Positions 1,192-59,212 of a stretch of 64,000 nt of DNA are shown piece by piece. Each line of letters begins with the position of its first letter. The stretch's first letter is position 1. The DNA is from an uncultured Ignavibacteriales bacterium (GTDB lineage: Bacteria; Bacteroidota; Ignavibacteria; Ignavibacteriales; Ignavibacteriaceae), in assembly GCA_963834015.1 (NCBI GenBank), contig CAWIAG010000004.1, forward strand, positions 1,749,926 to 1,813,925. Direction: 5' to 3'. The translations under genes and the position numbers were made by a program. The notes under the pieces were generated by a model. That model worked only from the letters and a program-made list of their open reading frames with translations. It had not been told where the DNA came from and searched no databases.

Positions 1192-2439
1192 ATGAATAAA
1201 AAAAGAATTGGCGTCGGGATTATCGGCGCAGGCTTCAATGCCAGGTTTCATATTAAATCATGGGTGTCTGTCAGGGATGCGGATATTTTAGGGATATATG
1301 ACAGGAACCCGGAAACTGCTTCCGCCGCTGCAACGCTTGCAAAAAACCTGCGGGTGGGCGAGGCAAAAGTTTTTAAGTCGATTACTGATATGGCCGCCGA
1401 TCCGGGTATTGATGCGCTTTGGATTTGTTCGCCTAATTTTACACGCATAGAAGTGATGGAAGAAATTACTAATGCGGTTTTAACAGGTAAAGCTGATCTT
1501 ACCGGTATCTGCTGCGAAAAGCCTTTGGGAAGAAATGCAGCGGAAGCAGGAAAGATGCTTGAGCTTGTTCAAAAAACGAAACTGCTGGACGGGTATCTTG
1601 AAAACCAGCTTTTTTCTCCCGCAATTATCCGCGGCAGGGAAATTATCTGGGCAAGAGGCGCACGGTTCGCAGGCCGTCCCTACCTGGCAAGAGCGGCTGA
1701 GGAACACAGCGGCCCGCACAAACCATGGTTCTGGGAGGGAGAATTGCAGGGCGGCGGAGTTCTGAATGATATGATGTGCCATTCTGTTGAGGTTGCCAGG
1801 TTTTTATTAACGGAACCCGGTAAACCAAGGAATTCAATTACCCCGGTTAGTGTTTCCGCCCATGCAGAATGTTTAAAATGGCAGAGGCCCGGGTATGCCG
1901 AAATCCTTGCAAAAAATAGTAACGGTACAACAGATTATATAAACCGTCCGGCAGAAGATTATGCGCATGCTCTTGTTGAGTATAAGGATGAGAACGGGAA
2001 AAAACTTATCGTCGAAGCCACAACCTCATGGGCGTTTGTGGGTGCAGGTTTACGGCTGAGTATGGAATTGCTCGGGCCCGAATACTCGATGGCTGTGAAT
2101 ACTTTGGATTCGGATCTTAAACTTTTCCTGAGCAGAAATATCAAAGCGGATGCGGGTGAAGATTTAATTGAAAAGCAGAATGCGGAAAGCGGACTTATGC
2201 CCGTTGTTAGCAATGAAGAGAATACTTACGGATACGATCTTGAAAACAGGCACATGGTAAAATCATTTATTGAGGGTGTAAGGCCAAGCGAAAACTTTAG
2301 CGACGGCTTTAATGTAACGCAGCTTCTGATGACGGCATATATGAGCGCCGAACAGGGTAAAACTATCCCGTTCCCTCATCCGGATCTCCAAACTTTTATC
2401 CCTCTTGTTGCCAAAGGTAAATGGAATCCCGGGAAATGA
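1192..2439 (+). CDS. Gfo/Idh/MocA family NAD(P)-dependent oxidoreductase (cytoplasmic)
   Basis: N-terminal Rossmann motif GVGIIGAGFNARFH. Length of 415 aa is typical of the family. No signal peptide. Confidence 0.85.
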   Translation: MNKKRIGVGIIGAGFNARFHIKSWVSVRDADILGIYDRNPETASAAATLAKNLRVGEAKVFKSITDMAADPGIDALWICSPNFTRIEVMEEITNAVLTGKADLTGICCEKPLGRNAAEAGKMLELVQKTKLLDGYLENQLFSPAIIRGREIIWARGARFAGRPYLARAAEEHSGPHKPWFWEGELQGGGVLNDMMCHSVEVARFLLTEPGKPRNSITPVSVSAHAECLKWQRPGYAEILAKNSNGTTDYINRPAEDYAHALVEYKDENGKKLIVEATTSWAFVGAGLRLSMELLGPEYSMAVNTLDSDLKLFLSRNIKADAGEDLIEKQNAESGLMPVVSNEENTYGYDLENRHMVKSFIEGVRPSENFSDGFNVTQLLMTAYMSAEQGKTIPFPHPDLQTFIPLVAKGKWNPGK

Positions 2440-2443
2440 ATAA

Positions 2444-3005
2444 TGCGAATTAACACGAATTAGGTTAATACGAATTTACACGAATTATCATTACGAATTT
2501 CCACGAATTATCATTACGAATTTCCACGAATTAGGACGAATTCACGCGAAGTATCAGTAGGTGTATATTAAATTAGAGCTTTCATAAAAAATGAAATACA
2601 TTCTTAAAAAGTCCCCTCTTGGGAGGGGTGCAGGGGTGGGTCGAAGCGATTATATTTATAAAACCTCTGCAATTATTTTTATTCGTATAATGAATATACT
2701 GTAATGTTAGTAGGTACCCATATAAGCAGAACAATTACAAGAAATAAAAACATTACAGGTACATAATTTATCGACATGTAGAGAAGGGGCATGCCCTCCC
2801 GATAAGAAATTGGGACAGGCTGTCTTTACGATGCAATGTGTAATGTTGGAAGGCTCCCATAAAGCAGAACTTTTATAAAATATTTAACACACTACAAACG
2901 AAGTTAATACAATCTAATGTGAATTTTGTTCTAAGTCCCAGCGGGACGAAATATTTATAGCATAACAAACCCCAACAAACCTTTTCCTGAATCCCGGAGG
3001 GATGA
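2444..3005. repeat. Composite block of short dispersed repeats. Module A (ACGAATT-type 23-bp sub-repeats) at 2444-2555; module C' at 2701-2733; module B (palindromic GTAGAGAAGGGGC...GGCTGTCTTTACGATG) at 2777-2833; module C at 2839-2876; module D at 2966-3005.
   Basis: Each module recurs elsewhere in the window, and the same modules recur in inverted orientation at 6264-6637. Confidence 0.65.
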
Positions 3006-3106
3006 CATAATAACGGATAAGTACCATGTCTACGCCTAATTATTCACAATGCCGCTTAATAAAATTCTTAATATCCGCGTAACTTAAATGAATTATTAAG
3101 TGTACA

Positions 3107-3304
3107 TTATTCAATCTTAATTTTCTTCTTAAAATCTTCTTCAGATATATTGGAATCTTGTTTCCTGTCTTCTATGATTTTAATACATTCATTGTCTTCA
3201 ATTATCTCAAGCATCTCTTTGTACACTTTATAATCAACAAGAACACTCTTAGGCTTGCCGCTTTTATTATAAAATATTTTCTCTCTGGTTTTTAACTCGA
3301 TCAT
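3107..3304 (-). CDS. Small Phd/YefM- or RelB-like antitoxin-like protein (orphan; no adjacent toxin ORF)
   Basis: 65 aa. The segment SGKPKSVLVDYKVYKEMLEIIED resembles the conserved 'RGKPVAVLISxEEYExLxE' core of Phd/YefM antitoxins. It sits just downstream of the tandem-repeat array. Confidence 0.4.
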   Translation of the reverse strand: MIELKTREKIFYNKSGKPKSVLVDYKVYKEMLEIIEDNECIKIIEDRKQDSNISEEDFKKKIKIE

Positions 3305-3423
3305 TTTATGTCTCCTGAACTATCGGAAAAAATAATTTATTTAACCTCAAAATCAAATTATATCAATGCTATAAGCATTATGATCATAACAATCCTGAAT
3401 AACTTAAAAATAATTCTGTGATT

Positions 3424-3556
3424 GAATTACAATGAATGACAACCGAATGACCATCGAATTACAACGAATGACCATCGAATTACAATGAATGACCATCGAA
3501 TGACAACGATTGACCATTGAATGACCATGATTAACCATCGAATGACCATGAATTAT
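3424..3556. repeat. Tandem array of ~21-bp units (consensus approx GAATGACCATCGAATTACAAC, 6-7 degenerate copies)
   Basis: Read directly: ...gaatgacaaccgaatgaccatcgaattacaacgaatgaccatcgaattacaatgaatgaccatcgaatgacaacgattgaccattgaatgaccatgattaaccatcgaatgaccatg... Confidence 0.75.
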
Positions 3557-3608
3557 GGGCTACGCTTCAGGCAATCAATTCCCCGCAATTTATTTAAAAA
3601 TAAACTAT

Positions 3609-5072
3609 TTAATACACCAGAGTCTGTATTGCGTGCGGCGGAATAGTTACTGCCGCTTCTTTTAATCCGGCGTACAGGCTATAATGTATCTCATTGCCGC
3701 TTTGATTCATTACTACCGTTGCCATCTTACCATTTGGATTTAAAAATGATGCAGTCAGCAGGGCGCTCCTGTTTGAGACGGCGCTTACTCTTCGGGCTCC
3801 CGGGCGTATGAATTTTGAGAAGTGGCCGATATAAAAATAAGATGGTGTGTAAATTAAATTACCGGTTTTTATGTCTGCATGGACAGGTGCAAAACAATAG
3901 TTGCCCACATGATTAGGACCGCCGTTTTCATCAAGAAGAATATTCCAATCCGTCCAGCCGCATGTCCCGTTATTAAGATCATTAATCATTGAGCGGCCGT
4001 AACGCTCTGCATTAGGCCAATAAAAATATTTGGAGGAATCAAATTCTTCTACACAGCCTTCGGTAAATAATATGTTCTTGCAGGGATAATTCTCCCTTAC
4101 GTGTGCAATGTTATCAAACAGTGGCTCGCTGCCCGTCCACGTTTCATACCAGTGGAAACCAAGTCCCCATGCGTATTTTGCGGCGGCGGAATCGGAATAA
4201 ATTACATCAGCCCAATGATTTGCAAAATCCCTGTTATGATCCCAGATTATAATTTTTTTATCCCCAAGGCCGTGATTTTCCATTGCCGGGCCTAAATAGT
4301 TTTTCAGGAAGTCTCTTTCTTCTTCAGCGGTGTAATTACATGATTCAAAACTCTGTACTGCCAATGGTTCATTCTGAATGGTAATTCCCCAAACGGGAAT
4401 ACCCTCCGCCGCATAGGCTTTAATAAATTTTGTAAAGTAATCAGCCCATGATTGGTAGTATTCCGGTAAAAGTTTGCCGCCTTTTAACATGCTTTTATTG
4501 TCCTTCATAAATGCAGGCGGGCTCCACGGGCTGGCGAAGATTGAAATTTCTCCCCCCGCTTTTTCTATTGCCTGTTTGATCAAAGGAATGCGGAATTGTT
4601 TATCATGCTCAATATTAAAGGTTTTCAGTTCTTTATCTTTCGCAGTAACGTAGGTATAGCTCTCGCTGCTGAAATCGCAGCTATTAATGTTTGTACGCAT
4701 CAGTGAATAGCCAATGCCGTTCTGTTTATCGTAATAAGCATTTAATAGTTCCTGCTGTTTATCCGTGGGTAATTTTGCAAAGACTTCCGCAGCAGCATCT
4801 GTAACTGCGCCTCCTATACCAAGAATTTCCTGGAACTGTTTCCCGGGATTTACAAATACGGCGGTTTCAGTTTCAAGAGGCGGGCGAGCTTGTGTAAAAT
4901 CTAAAACGGAAGTTTTGGTAAGCCGTAAGTTTGTACTGTCCGCAGTTGTATAAACAATTATGTTTTCCCATTCGGCAGAGAATTGCTGCTGTGCAAAGAG
5001 CTGCTGAATAATTGATGAACACAGGATCAGCAGGAAAAGGGCCGGGAGAAGGTGGTAGGGGTGTTTTAACAT
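3609..5072 (-). CDS. Glycoside hydrolase family 30 (glucosylceramidase/O-glycosyl hydrolase-like), secreted
   Basis: 487 aa with an N-terminal signal peptide. Contains the GH30-like acid/base segment ITIQNEP and a TIM-barrel plus beta-sandwich layout typical of GH30. Confidence 0.8.
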   Translation of the reverse strand: MLKHPYHLLPALFLLILCSSIIQQLFAQQQFSAEWENIIVYTTADSTNLRLTKTSVLDFTQARPPLETETAVFVNPGKQFQEILGIGGAVTDAAAEVFAKLPTDKQQELLNAYYDKQNGIGYSLMRTNINSCDFSSESYTYVTAKDKELKTFNIEHDKQFRIPLIKQAIEKAGGEISIFASPWSPPAFMKDNKSMLKGGKLLPEYYQSWADYFTKFIKAYAAEGIPVWGITIQNEPLAVQSFESCNYTAEEERDFLKNYLGPAMENHGLGDKKIIIWDHNRDFANHWADVIYSDSAAAKYAWGLGFHWYETWTGSEPLFDNIAHVRENYPCKNILFTEGCVEEFDSSKYFYWPNAERYGRSMINDLNNGTCGWTDWNILLDENGGPNHVGNYCFAPVHADIKTGNLIYTPSYFYIGHFSKFIRPGARRVSAVSNRSALLTASFLNPNGKMATVVMNQSGNEIHYSLYAGLKEAAVTIPPHAIQTLVY

Positions 5073-5103
5073 TGTTTAGCTTTCGTTATTGAATTAAATA
5101 ATA

Positions 5104-5196
5104 TGCGAACTAGAATTAATACGAATTTACAATAATACGAATTTCCACGAATTATCTTTACGAATTTTCACGAATTAGGACGAATTTACACGAAGT
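5104..5196. repeat. Module A repeat copy (ACGAATTT(C/A)CACGAATTA sub-repeats ending ...GGACGAATTTACACGAAGTAG)
   Basis: Near-identical to 2444-2555 in the same orientation. Confidence 0.65.
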
Positions 5197-5208
5197 AGAT
5201 TATGTTCG

Positions 5209-5244
5209 GTGTAGAAGACGGGGCATGCCCTGTCTTTACGGGAG
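5209..5244. repeat. Module B, minimal form: GTAGAAGACGGGGCATGCCCTGTCTTTACGGGAG (20-bp imperfect palindrome AGACGGGGCA/TGCCCTGTCT)
   Basis: This is the shortest member of the B family. Other copies carry 20-40 bp inserted at the GCATGC centre. Confidence 0.65.
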
Positions 5245-5318
5245 ATACGTGAAAAAATTAAAGATGATATAACAATAAAAAATTAGTATGTGATGCAGCA
5301 GGTTGTTAAAGGAAGATA

Positions 5319-5528
5319 CTATCGCCAATGTATATTAGGTTTCCTGTTTTTTTCAGCGCATTCTCTTAGGTACATATTAATTAAATTTTGATAAGAGATA
5401 TCGGTTTCTGAAGCTAATTTTTTAAAATATTCCACCGTGTCATTCTCTATACGAATTGATATTTGCTTCTTGAGTTTCTTTATATAAGGATTACTAGACG
5501 ATTTTGAAAAATCATATTCTTTCTTCAT
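5319..5528 (-). CDS. brnA: BrnA-type antitoxin (ribbon-helix-helix / DUF4415-like); tool ORF extends to 5630 but the start is likely the internal Met at 5528 (or 5543)
   Basis: The segment KKEYDFSKSSSNPYIKKLKKQISIRIENDTVEYFKKLASETDISYQNLINMYLREC matches the BrnA consensus. It lies immediately downstream of BrnT and overlaps it. Confidence 0.7.
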   Translation of the reverse strand: MKKEYDFSKSSSNPYIKKLKKQISIRIENDTVEYFKKLASETDISYQNLINMYLRECAEKNRKPNIHWR

Positions 5529-5529
5529 T

Positions 5530-5820
5530 TTATTTTGCCTCATCGTAATATTTACTTTCAGATTTTGTTGCTTTTCTTGCGGAAATAATCCGGATAATTT
5601 CATCATTCTCTTTATAATTATGCACCACAATAAGAAGATTTAAATTATTAGAAATACCTAAAATAATATATCGTTCTTCTTTGATTGAATGATCAGGATC
5701 AGATATAAGTCGTGCATTGCCATCAAAAAACACGGTCTTAGCTTCTTCAAAAGAAATTTTATGCTTTTTTATATTCGCAAGATTTTTATTTTGATTCCAT
5801 TGGAAACGAATATTATCCAT
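5530..5820 (-). CDS. brnT: BrnT-type toxin (DUF497 ribonuclease toxin)
   Basis: 96 aa: MDNIRFQWNQNKNLANIKKHKISFEEAKTVFFD...IIRIISARKATKSE, a DUF497/BrnT-like fold-family signature. Toxin-first gene order with a 1-4 nt overlap to brnA. Confidence 0.7.
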   Translation of the reverse strand: MDNIRFQWNQNKNLANIKKHKISFEEAKTVFFDGNARLISDPDHSIKEERYIILGISNNLNLLIVVHNYKENDEIIRIISARKATKSESKYYDEAK

Positions 5821-5884
5821 AATGATAATATAATGATATTATAATTATCTACAAAATTCTTATAAAAGGAAATTTATAGAATAT

Positions 5885-5947
5885 GAATTCGCGTTAATGC
5901 AAATTTACACGAATAAGGACGAACCTGCATGCCGGCAGGCAGGTTTG
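5885..5947. repeat. Module A-like fragment (GAATTCGCGTTAATGCAAATTTACACGAATAAGGACGAAC) fused to a palindrome AACCTGCATGCCGGCAGGCAGGTTT
   Basis: Read directly. Overlaps a spurious 67-aa ORF (5905..6108 -). Confidence 0.5.
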
Positions 5948-6263
5948 AGCAAAGGGAAGAGGAGTGCTTGTCCCAAAGTGCTGAAATGTTTGATGATGGA
6001 TAAAATGGCGTACAATGAGTGATTCATTTCAACAGCAATTCGATCCGCCGTTCTCCAGCCTCCGGTCTCCGTTCTGCTGTCTCCGGTCTCCTCTTTATTT
6101 ACAAACAATATTAAAAATAAATAAATAAATTACACTGCTAATTGCCCTGCGATTATTCAAATTTAAAAACTCTGGTAAAAAAATCAGGAGATTTTAAAAA
6201 TTAAAATATTTAAATTTGCACCCGTGTTATTTACATTAAAATATATGCTAACGATTTCTTGTC

Positions 6264-6637
6264 CATTCGTGAAAATTCGTCCTAATTCGTGAAAATTCGT
6301 ATTAATATAAATTCGTATTCCTTTTAAGGAAATTATATCTTTGACATTCTGTTTGACGTATTGAAATACATACGGTGAAGTGTCTTGAATAAATTTTTAT
6401 ATGGGAAATCTGTTTTATTTTTTGCGGCCTACCGATAATTTTACATCTTACATCGTAAAGACAGCCTGCCTATCCCACTTGCCCCGCAGAGTCGGTGGCC
6501 CCGTCTCTACAAAGTGATAAATTATGTACATGTAATGTTTATCATTATTTATAAAAGTTCTTATTTTATGGGAGCCTTCCAACATTATACTTAAGTCCTA
6601 TGTCACCCCGCCGGGGTTCAGGAGAAGGTTTGTTGGT
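6264..6637. repeat. Second composite repeat block, every module inverted relative to 2444-3005. A-inv at 6264-6318; B-inv at 6450-6510; C'-inv at 6525-6548; C-inv at 6551-6590; D-inv at 6604-6637.
   Basis: The reverse complement of each module matches the left-hand copy, e.g. RC(6551-6590) = tataatgttggaaggctcccataaaataagaacttttat versus 2839-2876. Module order differs between the two blocks (left reads A-C'-B-C-D; the right, on the minus strand, reads D-C-C'-B-A), so this is a mosaic of independent elements rather than one clean inverted repeat. Confidence 0.65.
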
Positions 6638-7357
6638 GAGATTTTTTTGCTATAAACATTTCACCCCTCCGGGGTTTGGATATCGTTAATTCAGGTTTGT
6701 GAAATAAGGAGGGAAATAATTATCAATGTTATTGCTAACATTACAATTTTAAGGTAGCTGAATAACGGCAGAGCCGTGAAATGCTGGTAGAATTAAAAGG
6801 AAAAGACAAACACAAGTTAGCATCGTAGATGCGGCATGGTGAATTTGATTACGAAACACCTGTCACCGGAATGCGGTTTAGGAAAGGTTTGATTAGGAAT
6901 TATTGCTACACCCATGCCGTCCAGATTGGACTTAGCGCAACGGATCCGGTTAATGAATCGCTGCATTTCGGAGTGAGTTCTCAGCCCTTTTTAGGCGAAA
7001 AAATTACCAGGATTTTATTAAATTTTAAATTTTAAAAAAACTCATGTTAGCTCCAATAGCATAAACTCTTGATTTTATTAACTTTAAATTTTTATTTTCC
7101 TTGAGCTAAGCTGGATTAAATGATTTGTTTTTAATAAGTTAAATGATTTAACACCTCTTGTTTTTTTTCGCTTTTTTAAAGGTTAAATCCTTTGTATTCA
7201 ATAACTTAATTGATTTTTTAGTGTCAATTTAGGCCCTTTTTATGATATCATTTTGGCATTTTTGGTGTTATTTCCCGTCATATTATGATATTTTTATCTG
7301 TATATATTATAAGGGTTTAGCAAACAGCATAAACCGGAAATTCAAAAAAATAATCCA

Positions 7358-8218
7358 ATGTTAATGAATCAAAATATTCAGGAAATAATCGGACAAAGAT
7401 ATTCATGCCGTTTTTACAACCATGAACCTATTCAGAAAGTGCATCAGCAGGAACTCAGAAAGTTCCTGGAGACTCTGCACACCGGCCCTTTGGGAACACA
7501 TGTTCGTCTTGAACTTGCCGCCGCTGAACCGGAAGAGAGACAATCTTTAAAAGGACTAGGCACATACGGCGTTATCAGGAATCCTGCAGGTTTTATTATA
7601 GGTACGGTAGAACAGGCGCCAGGGGACCTTGAAGATTACGGATACGTTCTTGAGCATGCAATTCTTACAGCTACCGGTATTGGTTTAGGTACCTGCTGGC
7701 TTGGCGGCCCTATTACAAAAAGCAGTTTTGCAAAAAAAATTTCTTTACGGGATAATGAAACAATGCCTGCCGTAGCTGCCGCAGGATATATCGAAGAGAG
7801 AAAAGGAAAAGACGGTGAGATTATTAACTACAGAAGACCGGCCCGCTTGCCTTCAGAACAGTTATTCTTCGCTGATGCATTCGGCAGTGCGTTAATTATG
7901 GAAACTGCAGGCGAATATTCGCAGCCTCTTGAAATGGTCCGTATAGCCCCGTCAGCTTCCAACAAACAGCCGTGGAGAATTGTCAGGATAAATAATGCGT
8001 GGCATTTTTTTCTTCGGCGGACAAGAGGGTACGGCAAAGGGACAGTGTTATTCAGAATTCTCAGGCTCGCCGATCTCCAGCGTGTTGATATGGGTATTGC
8101 CATGTGCCATTTTGAACTCACCGCCCGTGAGCTTGGATTAAACGGCGTTTGGGTTATCGATGATCCAAAAATTCAAATGCCCGGAGGAACGGAATACACG
8201 GCAACGTGGAAAGTTTAA
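7358..8218 (+). CDS. Nitroreductase-family flavoprotein (enlarged, 286 aa)
   Basis: N-terminal IIGQRYSCRFYNHEPI and C-terminal SASNKQPWRIVRI match the two halves of the nitroreductase fold. Confidence 0.75.
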   Translation: MLMNQNIQEIIGQRYSCRFYNHEPIQKVHQQELRKFLETLHTGPLGTHVRLELAAAEPEERQSLKGLGTYGVIRNPAGFIIGTVEQAPGDLEDYGYVLEHAILTATGIGLGTCWLGGPITKSSFAKKISLRDNETMPAVAAAGYIEERKGKDGEIINYRRPARLPSEQLFFADAFGSALIMETAGEYSQPLEMVRIAPSASNKQPWRIVRINNAWHFFLRRTRGYGKGTVLFRILRLADLQRVDMGIAMCHFELTARELGLNGVWVIDDPKIQMPGGTEYTATWKV

Positions 8219-8220
8219 GT

Positions 8221-8260
8221 GCGGATTCACACGATTTGTTAATACGAATTTGCATTAATC
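8221..8260. repeat. Module A-like short copy (GCGGATTCACACGATTTGTTAATACGAATTTGCATTAATC)
   Basis: Sequence similarity to the ACGAATT-type repeats, located directly after the nitroreductase stop. Confidence 0.45.
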
Positions 8261-8336
8261 TTTTCCAGGTATTATTTTACGGCTACAAAAGTAGCCATAT
8301 GGTTACAATAGTATCCATAAACAAAACTGATGAAAA

Positions 8337-8945
8337 ATGATTGTTAACAAATTATTAGAAAAATTATTTAGTGCGCCAAGTAATATTTCTGTAATCAGGG
8401 TGCTGAATGAGAGAGTTACGGGAATAACAGGCAGAGAGACTGCAAGGCTTACCAATCTTACACATCGTTCGGCTCTAAAAGCCCTTACTAATCTGGAAGA
8501 GCTTGGCGTTGTATCTCGCATAACAGGCGGTAGAGATCATATATTTACTCTTAACAGGCAGAAATATATTTCTAAAGAGATCATCTACCCGATTTTTGAA
8601 GCTGAAAAAAAATTTAATACAGCTATCAGATCTTCTTTAAAAAAACAATTATCAAAGTTAACTGATAGCATTATTGTATATGGTAGCGTTGCCCGTAAGG
8701 AAGAAACAATATCAAGTGATTATGATGTCTGCATTGTTTATAACGGGCATTTAAATGATATTGAAAATATTGTCTTAAAACTAAGGGACCGGCTTCATGA
8801 CCAATATTCAATTCAACTTGCTCCGATTTATATCAGAACCGCCGAATTTAAAAAACGTGCACGTAAAAAACTACCCCCGGTGAATGATATAGTTAATGAA
8901 GGAGTGGTAATAAGCGGTAAATCAATTCATAAGCTTCTGCAATGA
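8337..8945 (+). CDS. Nucleotidyltransferase (MNT/MntA-like antitoxin-type) with N-terminal winged-HTH extension
   Basis: The C-terminal half (IIVYGSVARKEETISSDYDVCIVY) carries a minimal-nucleotidyltransferase GS...D.D motif. The N-terminal ~90 aa (RVLNERVTGITGRETARLTNLTHRSALKALTNLEELGVV) looks like a wHTH. The stop overlaps the next gene's start (ATGA at 8942). Confidence 0.75.
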   Translation: MIVNKLLEKLFSAPSNISVIRVLNERVTGITGRETARLTNLTHRSALKALTNLEELGVVSRITGGRDHIFTLNRQKYISKEIIYPIFEAEKKFNTAIRSSLKKQLSKLTDSIIVYGSVARKEETISSDYDVCIVYNGHLNDIENIVLKLRDRLHDQYSIQLAPIYIRTAEFKKRARKKLPPVNDIVNEGVVISGKSIHKLLQ

Positions 8946-9343
8946 AACAACCCGTAAAAAAGATTGATGTAAATAAATATTTGGATTTTATAAAAGTTTC
9001 CGATGACTTTTCAAACGGAAGTGAATCTGCATATACATTCGAATACTATAATGCCGCCGGAGTTTTAGTAATTCATGCTGCAATTGCGCTTGCTGATGCT
9101 GTTACAATCAAACTATCCGGCAAAAAATGCAGCGGTGAAAGTCATTATGATATTATAGACTTATTAAGACTTGTCACTCCACCATCGCAGAATAAAAATA
9201 AATCATTAGATCAGTTCAAAAAATTGATTGATCATAAAAATAAAGTTTCATACTATGGTGATATCTATTTTAAGAAAGATGTAGATAAATTATTAAATCA
9301 TTTCAAAAGGTTTAAATCCTGGGCCGGTATGTTGCTAATGTAA
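8942..9343 (+). CDS. HEPN-domain protein (HepT-like partner of the upstream nucleotidyltransferase)
   Basis: 133-aa all-helical small protein, translationally coupled to the MNT gene. An Rx4-6H-like region, LIDHKNKVSYY, sits near the C-terminus, but Arg is replaced by His. Confidence 0.6.
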   Translation: MKQPVKKIDVNKYLDFIKVSDDFSNGSESAYTFEYYNAAGVLVIHAAIALADAVTIKLSGKKCSGESHYDIIDLLRLVTPPSQNKNKSLDQFKKLIDHKNKVSYYGDIYFKKDVDKLLNHFKRFKSWAGMLLM

Positions 9344-9444
9344 AATACTATCTTTAATTGCATTAAGTTCTAAAAGAGATATTGACTTGATTTTACTATA
9401 ATTTAAACCGGCAGGTTTGTAAGAAAGGCATGAGCTTATTTTAA

Positions 9445-9495
9445 GCGTAAAGACATCCTGTTTGTCCCGCTTGTCCCGCCAAGGCGGTGGTCCGA
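9445..9495. repeat. Module B copy (inverted): GCGTAAAGACATCCTG...GGCGGTGGTCCG, with the insert containing CTTATCGGGA
   Basis: The RC reads ...CGGACCACCGCC...CAGGATGTCTTTACGC. An A-like GAATCACGAATTTTT sits immediately 3' (9519-9535). Confidence 0.5.
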
Positions 9496-9530
9496 TTCCT
9501 TATCGGGAGGGTTAGGCGAATCACGAATTT

Positions 9531-9566
9531 TTTTCCCCTCTCTTTATTAGGAGAGAGGGTGATTTT
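9531..9566. terminator. Probable bidirectional intrinsic terminator between the convergent HEPN (+) and MBL (-) genes
   Basis: TTTT-CCCTCTC-tttattagga-GAGAGGG-TGATTTT: a 7-bp G/C-containing stem flanked by T-runs on the + strand. Confidence 0.45.
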
Positions 9567-9598
9567 GTATCGTCATGAAACAATAAATGTGTGAATGA

Positions 9599-10267
9599 TT
9601 AATTCAAAAGCTCCATGGGAAATGGTTTGCCATGTCCAGGGTACACCATATTTATTTTTAGCTCGTGAAGTTTTTCTAAACTTTTTGTCAGTTCATCATG
9701 ATCCTGAATTATATTTGCCGATTCCGGTTTTTTGTTATTAACAAGTGTATCTCCTGAAAACAAATCGCCCGCGCCGGTTAATATGCCGATTGAGCCTTTT
9801 GTGTGTCCGGGTAAATGTATAACTTTTGCATTGAACCCATATTCCTGCAGGCTCTGGCCGTCATGCAGATAGATATCCGGTGTAAACTGATCCGTATTTA
9901 TTTTTTTCTTCTTTAATTTTCTTAAAAAAATAATAATTGCAAACATGATTTTTCTTGAAAGGTGTTTTACTTTTCTTTTTCCGGGAGAGCCTGATTGTAT
10001 GATTGAATAATCATCTTTGTGCATTGCTATAACGGCATTATATTTTTCCTTAAGTTTTTTACAATTGCCGGAATGATCCCTGTCCCCGTGTGTTAAAATT
10101 ACCAGTTTTAATTTGCCGGGAAGGCAGCCGTTGGAAATTAATTCTTTTTCCAATTTTCCCCATTGCATGGGTAATCCGGTATCTATTAAAATAAAGCCCG
10201 TGCCCAGCTTAAAAAGATAAGCGTTTACAAAGGAGAGTGGAATGGTTTTTATATTTTCGTCAATCAT
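9599..10267 (-). CDS. MBL-fold metallo-hydrolase
   Basis: H-x-H-x-D-H motif in LTHGDRDHSG, later His/Asp ligands (HLPGHT), length 222 aa. Confidence 0.85.
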   Translation of the reverse strand: MIDENIKTIPLSFVNAYLFKLGTGFILIDTGLPMQWGKLEKELISNGCLPGKLKLVILTHGDRDHSGNCKKLKEKYNAVIAMHKDDYSIIQSGSPGKRKVKHLSRKIMFAIIIFLRKLKKKKINTDQFTPDIYLHDGQSLQEYGFNAKVIHLPGHTKGSIGILTGAGDLFSGDTLVNNKKPESANIIQDHDELTKSLEKLHELKINMVYPGHGKPFPMELLN

Positions 10268-13050: not shown

Positions 13051-13452
13051 CATCTGTATCATGTTGTTGTTCCATTCGTATTTTAAAAATAATTGTTTGC
13101 ATAGAAATACAGTTAAGGTAATATAATTTTTTACGTTCCAGATAATGTTGTAAAACTTCATATTAAAAATAAGCAGTAATTTATTAATTATATTGGCTTC
13201 AGTCGCATGGGCGGAACTATGAAATATCTCTCTGCCAATAATAAGGAATTTTTATTAGCTTTGTATGAGGCTTTGACCAGTTAAGGCAGGTAAAAAAAAA
13301 TAGATTACTATAATACGGTTAGCTTTATTGCATTTAAGCCTGATAAGAGTGAAACATTAAATTAGCGAAGCCTGCCCGTCTGCAGGCAGATGGTTTTCGA
13401 CTTACAAGATAATAATATTAATAATAATTGAATTTAATCCTGGAGATTAAAT

Positions 13453-15830: not shown

Positions 15831-17243
15831 ATGGATAACCAAATGGATACAAGACGAGAATTTATTAAAAAAATCGGGTTGAGCACTGCGGCTATAGCAG
15901 TAGGCACATCTTTATTAGACGGCCAGCAAGCTAAGATAAATCCTAAGACAAAGCCTGTTGTAACGGACGCTATGCATTACAACCGTATTATCGGTGCGAA
16001 TGACCGCGTTCATGTTGGTGTTGTAGGTTTTTCACATCGTTTTGAAGACACTCTTAGTCTGGCATTCAAAGCAAATGCTAAAGATATGAATATGGAATTT
16101 ACCGCTGTCTCCGATATATGGAACCAAAGAAGAGATGCCGGTATTTATTATCTGAACGGATTAACGGGAAATAAAATTACCGGGTACAGAAACAATGAAG
16201 AATTATATGAGAAATCAAAGGTTGATGCTGTTATTATCAGTACGGCTGATTTTCAGCATGCTTATCATGCCACGGAAGCCGTAAGGGCAGGGCGCGATGC
16301 TTATGTAGAAAAACCTTTAGCGGAATCGATGGCGGATAATAAAATGGTGCTTAATGCGGTAAAGGAGACAAAGAAAATAGTTCAGATAGGTTCCCAGAGG
16401 CGGAGCGCAAAAAATTATCAGACTGCGGCGGAATATATTAAGTCAGGCAAATTCGGCTTTATAAAGTTTGTTGAAATGACATGGAATGTAAACCAGCCGG
16501 ACCGCTGGCGTTTACCAGATGTAGTGGCTAAGTTAAAAGAGAGCGATACAGACTGGCAAAGATTTTTAGTTAACAGGGAAAGAATACCGTTTAATCCCCG
16601 TATTTATTGCGAGTACCGTTTATTCTGGCCTTATTCTTCGGGTATACCGGGGCAATGGATGTGCCATCAGATAGATACGGTGCATTGGTTTACAGGATTT
16701 AAACATCCTTTGAGTGTTGTTGCGGGCGGAGGAATTTATATGTGGAACGACGGCAGGAAAAACGCCGATACATTAACGGCTATATTGGAGTACGGCCCTG
16801 CCAATGATAAAGACACAACAAAGAGATTTCAGGTTAATTATACTTCAAGGTTTTCAAATTCGGCGGGTGATGTAAAGGAAATATATTACTCCAATGGTGG
16901 AGAGTTAAACCTTGATACAAACAAAGTGACTCCACATGGCGGTTTAACTAAAGAGCATGCTGAAAAATACCCGCAGTTCGGGCTTCATGAAAACCTTCTG
17001 CCTGAATTTGAACTTGCGGATAATAAGATAAAAAGCGTTACGGATGCAAATGCAGGAGCAGACCTGATGACGATTGCACACATGAGGAACTGGATGGAAT
17101 GTATTAGAAGCCGTCAACAACCGCATGCGCCAATTGAAGCAGGGTATAATCATTCAGTTGCAAGCATGATGGTAACAGAATCGTTACACAGAGGCAGAAA
17201 AGTTATTTTTGACGAAGGTAAACAGGAAATTGTAAATGCATGA
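15831..17243 (+). CDS. TAT-exported Gfo/Idh/MocA family dehydrogenase (periplasmic glycoside/sugar 3-dehydrogenase-like)
   Basis: Twin-arginine signal MDTRREFIKKIGLSTAAIAVGTSLL; a Rossmann GVVGF segment; length 470 aa. Confidence 0.85.
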   Translation: MDNQMDTRREFIKKIGLSTAAIAVGTSLLDGQQAKINPKTKPVVTDAMHYNRIIGANDRVHVGVVGFSHRFEDTLSLAFKANAKDMNMEFTAVSDIWNQRRDAGIYYLNGLTGNKITGYRNNEELYEKSKVDAVIISTADFQHAYHATEAVRAGRDAYVEKPLAESMADNKMVLNAVKETKKIVQIGSQRRSAKNYQTAAEYIKSGKFGFIKFVEMTWNVNQPDRWRLPDVVAKLKESDTDWQRFLVNRERIPFNPRIYCEYRLFWPYSSGIPGQWMCHQIDTVHWFTGFKHPLSVVAGGGIYMWNDGRKNADTLTAILEYGPANDKDTTKRFQVNYTSRFSNSAGDVKEIYYSNGGELNLDTNKVTPHGGLTKEHAEKYPQFGLHENLLPEFELADNKIKSVTDANAGADLMTIAHMRNWMECIRSRQQPHAPIEAGYNHSVASMMVTESLHRGRKVIFDEGKQEIVNA

Positions 17244-17249
17244 GTTCTT

Positions 17250-17296
17250 ACGAGACGGGATCGCATAGGGATAAACTATGCCCTGTCTTGTAAAAG
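17250..17296. repeat. Module B-like copy ACGAGACGGGATCGCATAGGGATAAACTATGCCCTGTCTTGTAAAAGG
   Basis: Same AGACGGG...CCCTGTCTT arms with a central insert, located right after the dehydrogenase stop. Confidence 0.5.
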
Positions 17297-52769: not shown

Positions 52770-55700
52770 ATGATTCGATCTATAGTACTGAGTTTTTTGT
52801 TTTGCAGTTTACTTCTTGCTTCATCCGGGGTTAAAGAGAGGCGTTATGCACCCGGCGAAATTATTATTAAATATGAAAAGGTAGGGCAAAGAGCAAGGGG
52901 GTCAGAGATAATAACCCAGCATAAAAGCTTTGTTGATAATTTAGAACTAAACATGAAGGGTTTAAAAATAAAAAGTTACTCTCCTGTTTTCAAAAGTTTA
53001 ATTAGGGAAATGACTGACAAAAATCTTACCGAGCAGGAGGTAGTTGAGAATAAAGCTGTTACCAAAAAAAATAAAACATCATCATCTTTTATTAAAAAAA
53101 TAACTTTCTCAAATATCCTTTTACTCAAAATTGATTCAGTAGCAGATATCTTAGAGTTAGCTTCAACTCTAAATAATAACCGAGATTTATTGGCCTCAGA
53201 GGGAATGAGAATTGTTTACGCCGAACCGAATTATTTAAAAAAGACAAGTGTAAACCCGAATGATCCTTTGTATCCTCTGCAATGGTCCTATCGAATAACT
53301 GATGTAGCTAATGCCTGGGATACTACGGAGGGAAGTCCTAATATTAAGATTGCAATTGTTGATACAGGAGTTGATCCAACACATCCGGATTTAATTGCAA
53401 ATCTTATTCAGGGCTATAATTTTGTTAATATCGATACAGACTACTACAAACAAGATTCTAATATAACCTTACTTCCGGGAGAAATTTATACGCAACCCGG
53501 ACCTAATTGTACCGACTATAATGGTCATGGGACTCACTGTGCAGGTATTGCTGCGGCAGCCGGAAATAATGGAATCGGAATTATCGGTGTAGCTCCAAAT
53601 TGTAAGATTATGCCTGTTAGAGCTGGTTTTAGTCTTATGGTTGATGGACAGGAGGAAGGTGTTCTTGAAACTACTTCTATCGTGGAAGGAATTAATTATG
53701 CAGTGGATAATGGTGCAAATGTAATTAGTATGAGTTTTGGTGGCGATAGTTCGAACCTTGAAGAAGAAGCTATTCAGAATGCTTATTACAACAATGTAGT
53801 CTTAGTTGCTGCTGCAGGGAACAACAGTTCATCTGAAAAGTTTTATCCGGCTGGATACAGTGAAGTATTAGCAATAACATCAGTAGATTCAACCAGGTCC
53901 GCTTCTTCATTTACTGAATATGGATATTGGACGTCTGTTGCAGCACCTGGAGAAAATATAATTTCAACTGTACCGTTAACTGGAGGTATCCTTACCGATC
54001 CATCCGGTTATAAGGTATTATCCGGAACTTCAATGGCGTCTCCTTTCGTTGCCGGTGAAGTTGCATTAATTTTATCGCACAATCCTTCTTTATCCAATAA
54101 TCTAATATATCAAATAGTCAGAACTGCAGTTAGTTCGTACTATGCGAGTAATAATTATATAGGTACCGGAATCGTTGATGTAGATAAAGCTTTTATAGGA
54201 ACCGGAGCTTGTATAGCAAAAATTACTGTTCCGTATAATATAAACAATCTGTATATATCCAAGGGAAATATAAGTATTTCCGGAAGAGCATCAGGGTTAT
54301 TATTCCGTAATTATTATTTGCAATACTCAGATTATCAAAATTCAACTGCGATCTGGCAGTCCGCAGGACAAATTTATACTACTCAGGTTGATAGCGGTTA
54401 CCTTGGAACTGTTAGTATAGCACAACCGGGGGTTTATTATATAAGGCTGGTAGTTACAAGCACTAACAATATACAGTATACAGATATAATCGGACCTGTT
54501 ACAGTTGATAACAGATTGAAATCCAATTGGCCGGTTTCAACAGGATCTCCCATCGGTTCTACGCCGGTACTTTCGGATATCTATGGGGACGGGAATGTTG
54601 AGGTAATATTTACAAGTTCAAACGGTGAAATCTATGTTGTAGATCAGAATGGCAATAATAAACCTGGCTGGCCTGTAACATTACCTAATTCCAGTTCTAA
54701 ATCCCAAGTTGGTTATACAAGCCCGGCAGTTGGGGATCTGGACAATGACGGTAAAAAAGAAATAGCAGTGAGAGACGGTCAGTTTATTTATGTATATAAA
54801 AATGATGGTACCATGAGGAATGGATGGCCGGTATCTTTAGGTACAAATATATTTTCGGGAAATGCAATAGTAGGCTCACCCACTATTGCTGATATTAATA
54901 ATGATGGTTATAAAGAAATACTTGTAACATCTCTTAATGGTAAAATATTTGCATTCGATCGTAATGGTTACATTATTTCCGGCTGGCCGGTATCAGTACC
55001 GATTAATTCTGTATGGGCTACTTTGTATTCAACTCCAGTAGTATCAGATATAAAAGGTGATGGTAACGTTGAAATAATAATCCAATGCATTGATGAGTCT
55101 TCCGCTAATTCTATTGGCTACCTATATGTATTTGATAATTTTGGAAATGTTCTTCCCGGCTGGCCGCAAACAATAGGAGGGGGATCATGGACTTCCCCTA
55201 TAACTGCAGATATAAACAATGATGGGCAAAATGAAATAATTGCATCTTCATTTTTGCCGTCCGGTTCTTCATCAGGTTCAATAGGTCTTTACGTTTTTAA
55301 TCCGGCCGGCAGCTTACTAAAAGGATTCCCTGTGCAGTTGAATGATGTGTCCTTTGGATATTATAATATTAAAGCAGGGCTGTCAGCCGGAGATATAAAT
55401 AATGACGGTTATAAAGAAATTATCGTTGCAAGCAGCCAATTGAATTCACTATGGGCGGTTGACAGAAATGGTAAAGTACTCTGGAATTCACAACCAAGCG
55501 AGCCATGGGAGTATAATTTTGCGTCGGTTCCAATTATTGCGGATATCAATAATGACGGCAAACCTGAAATATTAGTTTCTAAATACAATAATACAAATCA
55601 AACCGGCAAAATTATTGTTGTTAATAACACCGGGCAAATAATGGAAAGTCTTTCTTGTGTTCTTCCGGAACAGATATGGGCTACTCCTTCTATTGGTGAT

Positions 55701-57459: not shown

Positions 57460-58302
57460 ATGGAAATAAGGAGGACGATATTAAATAGAAGGCAAACAAA
57501 AAGTTCGGAAGGAGAGTTCATCTATGAGTTAGAGAACTCGTATGAGCTCTCTCCGAAATTAAGTGAATCGATATTAGTAACAGCAAAAGAATGTTTGCTA
57601 AGAGACCACCAATTGAAAGAAGGCCAGATAGAAGTAACGGTAATAGAAATAGAACAGAAAGCAGGACAAGTAATAGAGAAGCTGGAAAAGAAGAAAGTAA
57701 GATTGACCATAGACAATGGAATTGAAGATATAGAAGTAATAAAAGGATATGGTCTGATATCACTACGGCAAATAAAAATAGAAAGGATAACCGAAGAAGC
57801 GATAGAACAAGGAGGAGTATTAAGCCAGGAAGATTTGGGAAAATATTTAGGATGTACGGTAAGGACAATCCAACGGGATATAAAGCAGATAAAGAAGAAA
57901 GGGATAGAAGTAGTAACAAGAGGATATCTACATAATATAGGCAGAGGTCAAACACATAAGGTAAAGATAATAGGGCTGTATTTAGACGGACAAACGTACA
58001 GCGAAATAAAGTTAAGTACAAAACACAGTGTGGGAGCTATAAAAAGATATTTAGGAAGCTTCGTAAAAGTATTGATGTCACAAAGCAGAGGGATATACGG
58101 GACAAAAGATATAAGCATAGTAACAGGGATAAGCGAGGTATTAGTAAAGCAATATGCAGAGTTGATAAGGGAAAGTAAGAAGGATAAGACAAGGAGAGAG
58201 AATTTAAAGCAATTGGTAGAGAGAAGCAGCTATAGGGAAGGGATAAAAAAAACAGTAAAGAGCTATTCAGAGCCTCTGGCAGCTATGATGGGAGGCTTAT
58301 AA
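57460..58302 (+). CDS. Lys/Glu/Arg-rich protein with several HTH-like modules (possibly DUF1670-like); hypothetical DNA-binding protein
   Basis: 280 aa with repeated modules of the form LSQEDLGKYLGCTVRTIQRDIKQIKKKGIEV, TYSEIKLSTKHSVGAIKRYLGSFVK and DISIVTGISEVLVKQYAELIRE (resolvase/Tc1-type HTH pattern). GGAGG RBS. Confidence 0.7.
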   Translation: MEIRRTILNRRQTKSSEGEFIYELENSYELSPKLSESILVTAKECLLRDHQLKEGQIEVTVIEIEQKAGQVIEKLEKKKVRLTIDNGIEDIEVIKGYGLISLRQIKIERITEEAIEQGGVLSQEDLGKYLGCTVRTIQRDIKQIKKKGIEVVTRGYLHNIGRGQTHKVKIIGLYLDGQTYSEIKLSTKHSVGAIKRYLGSFVKVLMSQSRGIYGTKDISIVTGISEVLVKQYAELIRESKKDKTRRENLKQLVERSSYREGIKKTVKSYSEPLAAMMGGL

Positions 58303-59105: not shown

Positions 59106-59175
59106 AAAAATACCAGGCGACAAATGTCGTAATAGTAAATAACCAATTATGTGAGGCCATTTTATATGTTTAAAG

Positions 59176-59212
59176 TTGGAGAGTTGGGGCATGCCCCGGC
59201 TTTACAACACTA
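59176..59212. repeat. Module B-like copy GAGAGTTGGGGCATGCCCCGGCTTTACAACAC
   Basis: GGGGCATGCCCC palindromic core with ...CTTTAC... arm, as in the other B copies. Confidence 0.4.

What the first reader, a model, noticed from the sequence alone, without database searches (positions are those of the whole stretch)
5209..5244. Dispersed palindromic repeat family B with variable central inserts (6 copies in 64 kb)
The minimal copy is a 20-bp imperfect palindrome centred on GCATGC (AGACGGGGCATGCCCTGTCT), flanked by GTAGA…TTTACG. Other copies (2777-2833, 6450-6510, 9445-9495, 17250-17296, 59176-59212) keep the arms but carry 20-40 bp inserted exactly at the palindrome centre. Several inserts share GGGATA/CTTATCGGGA-like cores. 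All copies are intergenic and usually sit just after a stop codon. This fits a REP/MITE-like element family, or a structured RNA module that grows by central insertion.
Basis: seen in the sequence. Interest (0 to 1): 0.55.

Follow-up and report, generated by a model that had tools for sequence, protein, structure and literature searches.

The report
Decayed REP palindromes of a RAYT transposase
The repeats are real, but they are worn copies of a catalogued bacterial repeat: a 28-bp "double-foot" GTAG palindrome (REP) that in other genomes sits inside or beside a domesticated transposase gene, so the finding is ordinary.

Summary
The repeat family exists. Its arm and core motifs occur 3-4 times in the window against 0.02-0.06 expected, and all six copies lie in the 16% of the window that is intergenic.

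The ancestral unit is a 28-bp perfect palindrome, GTAG-AGAC(G/A)GGGCATGCCC(C/T)GTCT-CTAC. It turns up exactly in at least 120 loci from Bacteroidota, Ignavibacteriota and other phyla, with unrelated flanks. In about 18% of those loci it lies inside, or next to, a ~180-aa HUH/Y1 gene.

That gene matches the REP-associated tyrosine transposases (RAYT):
- NCBIfam REP-associated tyrosine transposase, E 1e-14 to 1e-17.
- Its only PDB hit is 4ER8, TnpArep.
- Its motifs are NH[IV]H, WQ and YIxNNP.

This is TnpA_REP subclass 2.4 with "double-foot" REPs, described by Quentin et al. 2018. Their supplement already lists near-identical sequences.

The window holds no RAYT. Only three copies keep both feet and only one is compact and near-canonical. 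The "central insert" claim holds for one copy at best. Copies 2 and 3 belong to a duplicated ~150-nt segment. Copies 1-4 sit unchanged at the same sites in a 96.5%-identical strain.

Verdict: immobile REP relics, a new member of a known kind, of low interest.

The parts
5211..5240 (+). Copy 1: compact, near-canonical double-foot REP, GTAGAAGACGGGGCATGCCCTGTCTTTACG. It has a one-base bulge in the left foot and one G.T pair.
   Evidence: DNA fold -7.1 kcal/mol, z -3.1. Identical in the 96.5%-identity strain. Lies 79 nt downstream of the brnA-like stop and abuts the ACGAATT tandem repeat.
2778..2830 (+). Copy 2: both feet are kept (GTAGAGAA...TGTCTTTACG). An extra hairpin, TCCCGATAAGAAATTGGGA, sits inside the right arm.
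   Evidence: The fold is not better than shuffles (z -0.9). One substitution in the sister strain.
6454..6510 (-). Copy 3: both feet are kept (GTAGAGACGGGGC...GGCTGTCTTTACG). The centre ATGCCC is replaced by ~33 nt.
   Evidence: Fold z -0.5. The orthologue in L127/L128 differs by one base.
9446..9511 (-). Copy 4: right foot only (TGTCTTTACG). It also carries the 45-nt module shared with copy 3 and the CCCTCCCGATAAGG hairpin shared with copy 2. There is no left arm.
   Evidence: Identical in L128/L129. Lies between convergent genes. A separate terminator-like hairpin is at 9536-9559.
17248..17293 (+). Copy 5: arms GAGACGGG/CCCTGTCT are kept, GTAG is lost, and the centre is extended to GCATAG-GGATAAA-CTATGC.
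   Evidence: Best hairpin in the window: -10.8 kcal/mol, z -4.6. Starts 5 nt after the stop codon at 17241-17243.
59175..59208 (.). Copy 6: compact copy with a perfect GGGGCATGCCCC core and diverged feet (GGAGAGTT.../...GGCTTTAC). It has no insert.
   Evidence: Fold z -2.2. One base differs in the NCBI MAG version (L126).
2690..2843 (+). Left copy of a ~150-nt duplicated segment that carries REP copy 2.
   Evidence: Inverted repeats I1, I5 and I11. Alignment A1 gives 78% identity.
6441..6600 (-). Right, inverted copy of the same ~150-nt segment. It carries REP copy 3.

Best explanation
The six sites are members, mostly decayed, of a repetitive extragenic palindrome (REP) family of the GTAG-tagged 'double-foot' type. 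The intact unit is the 28-bp palindrome GTAGAGAC-N12-GTCTCTAC. In this lineage it is GTAGAGACGGGGCATGCCC(C/T)GTCT(T/C)TAC.

Inferred from work on E. coli, Stenotrophomonas and Marinomonas RAYTs: such units fold into a hairpin on single-stranded DNA. A REP-associated tyrosine transposase (an HUH/Y1 enzyme) recognises the GTAG foot and the stem, then cuts and rejoins the strand. That activity spreads and maintains the repeats.

Shown here for other genomes: the same 28-mer lies in frame inside, or next to, a RAYT gene of subclass 2.4 (motifs NH[IV]H, WQ, YIxNNP).

Shown here for the window: there is no RAYT gene, and the copies are intergenic and degenerate. Three keep both feet and one is compact and near-canonical. 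Two of them are a segmental duplication. Copies 1-4 sit at the same sites in a strain that is 96.5% identical.

They are therefore most likely old, currently immobile relics. The extra internal DNA in the long copies comes from local indels, replacement and neighbouring small hairpins, not from a regular mode of growth. Any present role, such as a hairpin in a 3' UTR, would be incidental and is untested.
For: - Over-representation and strictly intergenic placement in the window.
- 147 occurrences in 123 loci share only GTAG + 20 nt + CTAC. Their flanks are unrelated.
- Unsupervised ORF clustering of those loci gives one top family, present in 20 loci plus 2 more by tblastn. [quoted passage not shown]
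- That protein hits NCBIfam NF047646 'REP-associated tyrosine transposase' at E 4e-14 to 3e-17 and Pfam Y1_Tnp weakly. The only PDB hit of its profile is 4ER8, TnpArep, at E 6.5e-8.
- Quentin 2018 (PMC6006769) defines subclass 2.4 by exactly these motifs, by double-foot REPs and by in-frame REP insertion in tnpAREP. Its supplement lists GTAGAGACAGGGCATTGCCCTGTCTCTAC, GTAGAGACAAGGCATGCCTTGTCTCTAC and GTAGAGACGCACGGCCGTGCGTCTCTAC.
- REPtron-like layouts occur in L035 and L083.
- The inner stem covaries under constant feet. 92% of cells are paired, 54 cells carry changes on both sides against 14 in shuffles, and 0 of 500 shuffles reach this.
- The window's G/T-asymmetric variant, GTAGAGAC...GTCTTTAC, is the one embedded in the Melioribacter RAYT genes (L035, L104).
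- Copies 1-4 are conserved at orthologous sites in the sister strain.
Against: - No RAYT gene was found in the 64-kb window or in ~15 kb of flanks. The rest of the source genome could not be searched, so the link to a cognate enzyme in this organism is inferred.
- Only one window copy is close to canonical, and it has a bulge. Copies 4-6 would not be recognised without the others.
- The RAYT hits fall below NCBIfam's 80-bit equivalog cut-off.
- No subclass 2.4 enzyme has, to my knowledge, been tested biochemically on a double-foot REP.
- A palindrome's covariation is equally compatible with a symmetric double-stranded binding site, or with a copying mechanism that makes perfect palindromes.
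Confidence: 0.85

Rival explanations
1. The hairpins are transcription terminators or mRNA 3'-end stabilisers, selected at gene ends for that function and independent of any transposase.
For: Four of six copies lie within ~100 nt downstream of a stop codon. Copies 1, 5 and 6 fold better than shuffles. REPs in other bacteria have been assigned such roles (abstracts of PMC3733652 and PMC2817692).
Against: No copy is followed by a T-run, and none was called by the terminator scan. Separate canonical terminator-like hairpins sit nearby, for example at 9536-9559. Copy 3 lies in a divergent promoter region. The same 28-mer occurs in frame inside genes in other genomes. A secondary stabilising role is not excluded.
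Confidence: 0.07
2. The long copies (2, 3, 4) are a separate ~85-150-nt non-autonomous element or structured RNA. It merely shares terminal feet with the palindrome and diversifies by internal insertion.
For: Copies 2-4 share internal modules. Copies 2 and 3 sit in a ~150-nt repeated unit with flanking TGTAATGTT...CCCATA...AGAAC modules. Copy 4 folds with z -2.3.
Against: A 31-nt degenerate pattern (25 fixed bases) from the shared module found only the orthologous loci of one sister strain in all JGI metagenomes. The modules are absent from ~0.96 Mb of palindrome-bearing loci. Rfam gives no hit. Folds of copies 2 and 3 are no better than shuffles. There is no presence/absence polymorphism between strains.
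Confidence: 0.05
3. The palindrome is a symmetric double-stranded site for a DNA-binding protein or a site-specific recombinase. It has an 11-6-11 layout like dif or lox core sites.
For: The 28-bp length with a 6-bp GCATGC centre fits that architecture by inspection. Perfect dyad symmetry is kept across variants.
Against: The only gene family enriched at these sites is an HUH/Y1 single-strand enzyme. No recombinase or regulator cluster emerged. The inner 12 nt vary freely as long as they pair, which fits structure recognition better than sequence-specific duplex binding. Multiple dispersed recombination sites would destabilise the chromosome (inference).
Confidence: 0.03

Closest known systems
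Double-foot REPs of TnpA_REP (RAYT) subclass 2.4, Bertels group 4 (Quentin et al. 2018, PMC6006769)
   Same: The layout is the same 28-bp 5' GTAG ... CTAC 3' palindrome with a 12-bp stem and a 4-nt loop. The feet GTAGAGAC/GTCTCTAC are the same, and near-identical sequences are listed for Emticicia, Solitalea and Chloroflexus. The cognate protein has the same motifs (NH[IV]H, WQ, YIxNNP). The REP is likewise inserted in frame between HuH and Y.
   Different: The window copies are degenerate. One foot reads GTAA instead of GT[AG]G, and there are bulges, replaced centres and missing arms. No cognate gene lies in the window. The host looks like an Ignavibacteriota/Bacteroidota-type MAG, a lineage not in that study's text.
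GTAG-tagged REP superfamily (Di Nocera et al. 2013, PMC3733652) and the E. coli REP/BIME-TnpA_REP system (PDB 4ER8)
   Same: Both are short GC-rich extragenic palindromes with a terminal GTAG. Loop and centre variants have different lengths within a family. Units occur as singletons, dimers and clusters, some lie inside genes, and they are linked to RAYT genes.
   Different: In the classical families GTAG is unpaired at one end only, so the unit has polarity. Here GTAG is paired with CTAC. That survey reported GTAG repeats in Proteobacteria, Cyanobacteria, Chloroflexi and PVC, but only CGTC repeats in Bacteroidetes and Chlorobi.
REPINs (inverted REP doublets)
   Same: Copies 2 and 3 have two feet in inverted orientation separated by 29-40 nt. 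[quoted passage not shown]
   Different: The interior of the long window copies is not symmetric and does not consist of two REP hairpins. They are not dispersed.
MITEs
   Same: They are small, non-coding, intergenic and have inverted ends.
   Different: The unit is only 28 bp against 70-300 bp. No target-site duplication is seen and there is no matching DDE transposase. The flanks are unrelated right up to the foot.

Membership tests
GTAG-tagged REP (repetitive extragenic palindrome) | Short (20-40 bp) GC-rich palindrome able to form a stem-loop | tested here: met
   The consensus is 28 bp with a 12-bp stem and a CATG loop. Window copies 1, 5 and 6 fold with z -2.2 to -4.6.
GTAG-tagged REP (repetitive extragenic palindrome) | Conserved GTAG (GT[AG]G) at the foot of the hairpin | tested here: met
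   GTAG precedes the stem in most of the 147 occurrences and in window copies 1, 2 and 3. It is absent or degenerate in copies 4, 5 and 6.
GTAG-tagged REP (repetitive extragenic palindrome) | Predominantly extragenic location | tested here: met
   In the window 6 of 6 copies are intergenic against 16% intergenic sequence. In other genomes 22% lie inside ORFs of 200 aa or more, against 70% of the sequence.
GTAG-tagged REP (repetitive extragenic palindrome) | High copy number in the genome (tens to hundreds) | not testable with these tools
   Only ~80 kb of the source genome was available, holding 6 copies plus 1 degenerate copy in L126.
Double-foot REP / TnpA_REP subclass 2.4 system | 5' GT[AG]G and its complement C[TC]AC at the 3' end | tested here: inconclusive
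   This is met by the canonical copies elsewhere. In the window the 3' foot is TTAC (GTCTTTAC) in copies 1-4, so one foot is GTAG and the other GTAA. The same variant is embedded in the Melioribacter RAYT genes.
Double-foot REP / TnpA_REP subclass 2.4 system | Cognate HUH/Y1 protein with NH[IFV]H, WQ and YIxNNP motifs next to or around the REP | tested here: met
   This holds in other genomes: 22 of 123 loci, alignment A3, NF047646 at E 1e-14 to 1e-17 and 4ER8 at E 6.5e-8. It was not found in the window or its flanks, and the rest of the source genome was not searched.
Double-foot REP / TnpA_REP subclass 2.4 system | [quoted passage not shown] | tested here: met
   VETGHALSL, VKTGHAPSL or RDRACPVST occur in the variable linker of at least 17 RAYT ORFs. 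This applies to other genomes only.
Double-foot REP / TnpA_REP subclass 2.4 system | Enzyme binds and cleaves the single-stranded REP hairpin | not testable with these tools
   This needs a cleavage and strand-transfer assay like the one in PMC8266576.
MITE | 70-300 bp unit with terminal inverted repeats, flanked by a target-site duplication | tested here: not met
   The unit is 28 bp, the flanks are unrelated and no direct repeats are visible at the ends.
Intrinsic terminator | GC-rich hairpin followed directly by a T-run | tested here: not met
   None of the copies at 2300-9700 was called by the scan. By inspection no copy has a T-run on either strand.
Known structured RNA family (Rfam) | Match to a covariance model | tested here: not met
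   There were 0 matches at gathering score over the whole window and 0 at E<=1 over 2300-9700.

The most novel reading that the evidence does not exclude
Double-foot REPs may grow and multiply by acting on themselves. Other genomes show a copy nested at the centre of another (L024). They also show tandem repeats of a single arm with 15-20-nt periods (L018/L066, L045, L054, L093, L112) and a triple 54-nt repeat inside a RAYT gene (L074).

If subclass 2.4 RAYTs cut at the foot or the loop of the hairpin and rejoin onto another copy, three things would be explained together: the arm-wise amplification, the in-frame build-up of REPs in the enzyme's own linker, and the 'inserted' look of window copies such as copy 5.

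The exact conservation of the 28-mer across phyla would then point to recent horizontal spread of the enzyme-REP pair.
Probability: 0.15. Interest if true: 0.5.

Novelty: new member of a known kind. Interest (0 to 1): 0.2.

Why it matters
It matters little beyond correct annotation. Recognising these sites as REP relics keeps them from being reported as a new RNA or a new mobile element. It also explains the spurious 'VETGHALSL/RDGACPVST' peptides in hypothetical ORFs of Bacteroidota- and Ignavibacteriota-type genomes.

There is a modest added value. The data extend the GTAG double-foot REP / RAYT 2.4 pairing to Ignavibacteriota-like and other MAGs, including CPR, Acidobacteriota, Cloacimonadota and Methylococcales. 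They give clean covariation evidence that only the 8-bp feet and the pairing of the inner stem are constrained.

Tried and rejected
- Rfam, at gathering score over the window and at E<=1 over 2300-9700, gave nothing. The tRNA/tmRNA scan gave nothing.
- The terminator scan called no copy.
- tblastn of six RAYT proteins against the window found only chance hits, with E about 5-8. Pfam on 30 window ORFs found no transposase.
- Extending the window by 6.4 kb upstream (L001) found no copy. Extending ~9 kb downstream (L126) found one more degenerate copy and a DDE transposase fragment, but no RAYT.
- A search for the internal modules of copies 2-4 in ~0.96 Mb of loci and in all JGI metagenome contigs found only orthologous loci of a sister strain. 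The idea of a dispersed 'long form' element was dropped.
- A 6-mer enrichment test in the flanks checked whether ACGAAT-type repeats are generally tied to the palindrome. Only fragments of the palindrome itself were enriched. Short tandem repeats of any sequence are about 3-fold enriched within 40 nt (24% against 7%), which may simply reflect intergenic location.
- A literature search by sequence string and by assembly accession found nothing. The source organism could not be named; only T9SS-tail similarity to Ignavibacteriales MAGs was seen.
- The dif/lox-like recombination-site idea was considered from the 11-6-11 layout and rejected for lack of any associated recombinase.

Full report
**The observation**

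The sequence at 5211-5240 reads GTAGAAGACGGGGCATGCCCTGTCTTTACG, as reported. Its parts are strongly over-represented in the 64-kb window. GGGGCATGCCCY gives 4 matches against 0.02 expected. TGTCTTTACG gives 4 against 0.06. GTAGAGAMGGGGC with up to one mismatch gives 3 against 0.03. None of 100 shuffles reached these counts.

The family is therefore real. The description of the individual copies is only partly right.
- Three copies keep both feet: 5211-5240, 2778-2830 and 6454-6510 on the minus strand.
- In copy 2 the extra DNA lies inside the right arm, after GCATGCCC.
- In copy 3 the centre is replaced.
- Copy 4 (9446-9511) has only the right foot.
- Copy 6 (59175-59208) is compact, with a perfect GGGGCATGCCCC core, diverged feet and no insert.
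- Only copy 5 (17248-17293) looks like an extension of the centre.
- Copies 2 and 3 are not independent. They lie in a ~150-nt segment present twice in inverted orientation at 78% identity.

**What the unit is**

An exact search for AGACRGGGCATGCCCYGTCT found 3 viral contigs. The hosts are mostly Bacteroidota and Ignavibacteriota. They also include MAGs labelled Gammaproteobacteria or Methylococcales, Acidobacteriota, Cloacimonadota, Desulfobulbaceae and Candidatus Moraniibacteriota.

Lining up the 147 occurrences shows a 28-bp perfect palindrome, GTAG-AGAC(G/A)GGGCATGCCC(C/T)GTCT-CTAC. Nothing is conserved beyond GTAG and CTAC. The same loci contain 28-mers with the same 8-bp feet, GTAGAGAC and GTCTCTAC, but different inner 12-mers. 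Examples are GTTCCATGGAAC, GCACGGCCGTGC, ATTGCATGCAAT and GCGATTAATCGC. These inner parts average 5.1 of 6 Watson-Crick pairs, against 1.5 expected for random sequence.

On 35 distinct 28-mers, 92% of cells are paired. The four inner pairs show changes on both sides in 9-16 sequences each. No shuffle out of 500 reaches the observed covariation. The constraint is thus the feet plus the pairing of the stem.

**The associated gene**

I clustered all ORFs of the fetched loci without any prior. The largest cross-genome cluster covers 20 loci, and tblastn adds two more. It is a protein of ~170-270 aa.

Its alignment shows invariant MPNH[IV]HG, WQ and Y-I-x-x-N-P motifs. A variable linker after the HUH motif contains VETGHALSL, VKTGHAPSL or RDRACPVST. 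These peptides are the palindrome translated in one of its two open frames.

The family hits NCBIfam NF047646 'REP-associated tyrosine transposase' at E 4e-14 to 3e-17, which is below the 80-bit equivalog cut-off. It hits Pfam Y1_Tnp weakly. The only solved structure matched by its profile is 4ER8, the E. coli TnpArep, at E 6.5e-8 across both the HUH and the WQ...Y regions.

A random 8-kb locus should contain a RAYT gene well under 1% of the time (my estimate from 1-2 copies per genome). Here about 18% do. REPtron-like layouts are also present:
- In L035, a Melioribacter MAG, one variant REP lies 25 nt upstream of the start codon and the GGGGCATGCCCC REP lies inside the gene.
- In L083 the gene is flanked on both sides by REP arrays.

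**Comparison with the literature**

Di Nocera et al. 2013 (PMC3733652) defined the GTAG-tagged REP superfamily, with loop variants of different length within families, dimers, clusters and intragenic copies. They reported GTAG repeats in Proteobacteria, Cyanobacteria, Chloroflexi and PVC. In Bacteroidetes and Chlorobi they reported only CGTC repeats.

Quentin et al. 2018 (PMC6006769) then described TnpA_Y1 subclass 2.4, which corresponds to Bertels group 4. Its features are:
- HuH motif NH[IFV]H, W motif WQ and Y motif YIxNNP.
- 'Long' and 'double foot' REPs, with 5' GT[AG]G and 3' C[TC]AC.
- Distribution in 'Cyanobacteria, Bacteroidetes and various phyla'.

Their supplementary table lists GTAGAGACAGGGCATTGCCCTGTCTCTAC (Emticicia), GTAGAGACAAGGCATGCCTTGTCTCTAC (Solitalea) and GTAGAGACGCACGGCCGTGCGTCTCTAC (Chloroflexus aggregans). 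Every feature I derived independently matches that description. The kind is therefore known.

**State of the copies in this window**

There is no RAYT homologue in the window, in 6.4 kb upstream or in ~9 kb downstream. No transposase domain appears in 30 window ORFs.

The window's variant has one foot GTAG and the other GTAA (GTAGAGAC...GTCTTTAC). That is the variant embedded in the Melioribacter RAYT genes, which fits an Ignavibacteriota-like host. The host could not be named.

The internal modules of the long copies are found nowhere else in ~0.96 Mb of palindrome-bearing loci. In all JGI metagenome contigs they match only three loci, which proved to be the orthologous region of a strain 96.5% identical to the window. 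In that strain copies 1-4 sit at the same positions with 0-1 substitutions. There is therefore no sign of recent movement.

I read the window copies as old relics. The 'inserts' are local indels, replacements and adjacent small hairpins, not a regular growth mode. Variable centres are in any case a documented property of GTAG REP families.

**Mechanism, and what is shown against what is inferred**

Shown here:
- The repeat family exists and is intergenic.
- The stem is constrained to pair.
- The same sequence is physically linked to a RAYT 2.4 gene in many genomes.
- The copies are static between two strains.

Inferred from work on other RAYTs (PDB 4ER8; PMC8266576): the enzyme binds the folded single-stranded hairpin through the GTAG foot and the stem, and it cleaves and rejoins DNA. 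This accounts for how such units spread.

Not tested:
- Whether this genome still encodes the enzyme.
- Whether any subclass 2.4 enzyme processes a double-foot REP.
- Whether the hairpins affect neighbouring transcripts.

**Rival explanations**

A terminator role is unlikely as the primary explanation. No copy has a T-run or was called by the scan, and canonical terminator-like hairpins sit nearby. A distinct long element or structured RNA is unlikely, given the absence of dispersed copies, the lack of any Rfam match and the unremarkable folds of copies 2 and 3. A duplex recombinase or regulator site fits the 11-6-11 geometry, but it has no associated gene and does not explain the free variation of the inner stem.

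**Verdict**

This is a genuine repeat family, correctly sensed as REP-like. It is a decayed local population of a known REP class, with an over-interpreted 'central insertion' pattern. It is a new member of a known kind and of low interest.

The one thread that could be worth more is the nested and arm-wise duplicated copies in other genomes (L024, L045, L054, L018/L066, L074, L112). They hint that these REPs may be substrates for self-directed rearrangement by their enzyme.

Noticed in passing
window 2439-2553, 5111-5198, 6265-6327 (inverted), 5893-5914, 8238-8259: There are tracts of ACGAATTT(A/C)CACGAATTA-type tandem repeats with 10/23-bp periods in several intergenic regions. One tract abuts REP copy 1. 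No general link between this motif and the palindrome showed up in other genomes.
   Followed up: partly
window 3413-3555: A 21-bp tandem repeat, GAATGACCATCGAATTACAAC, occurs about 6 times with an 11-bp sub-period. It lies ~55 nt downstream of the stop of the GH30 gene (3609-5072, minus strand).
   Followed up: no
window ~2925-2960, 2985-3010, 6597-6625, 6650-6690: Small modules of the form TATAAAYATTTC + CCCNCNGGG hairpin, for example tgctataaacatttcacccctccggggtttgg, are repeated in both long intergenic regions. From memory, similar strings occur in many Bacteroidota-type genomes. I did not test this.
   Followed up: no
window 2440-3608 and 5073-7357: Two unusually long intergenic regions (1.2 and 2.3 kb, the second interrupted by the brnTA pair) are packed with several unrelated repeat modules. 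They include a ~150-nt inverted duplication (2690-2843 against 6441-6600) and a CCGGTCT heptamer run at 6048-6091.
   Followed up: partly
window 5319-5820 (-), 3107-3304 (-), 8337-9343 (+): Small toxin-antitoxin-like genes cluster among the repeats. They are a BrnT/BrnA pair, a RelB-like ORF, and an NTP_transf_2 protein followed by an unassigned 133-aa ORF.
   Followed up: no
window 52770-57404 and 59625-63053; 57460-59105: Two paralogous giant S8-peptidase/FG-GAP/T9SS-tail genes are 70-77% identical at the DNA level. Two adjacent DUF1670 genes separate them, and REP copy 6 follows the second of these.
   Followed up: no
L128 1781-4223, corresponding to window ~13184-13415: A sister strain (JGI contig Ga0181520_10000643, 96.5% identical) carries a 2.4-kb insertion with two genes of 373 aa and 187 aa. 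The window has only ~230 nt of intergenic DNA at that place.
   Followed up: partly
L126 (NCBI JBAUQR010000011.1) against L002 (JBAUQR010000077.1): In the NCBI MAG the two ends of the window lie on different contigs, whereas the ENA assembly has a 205-kb contig. L126 also carries one more degenerate double-foot palindrome, TGTAAAACCGGGTATACTCCGTCTTTACA, at ~9520-9548, and a DDE_Tnp_1 fragment at its end.
   Followed up: partly
L024 34-97, L045 478-523, L054 6635-6700, L018/L066 RAYT linker, L074 50-185, L112 5797-5888: In other genomes the palindrome shows nested copies and tandem duplications of a single arm with 15-20-nt periods. L074 has three 54-nt repeats inside a RAYT gene. Short tandem repeats of any kind lie within 40 nt of 24% of palindromes, against 7% of random positions.
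   Followed up: partly
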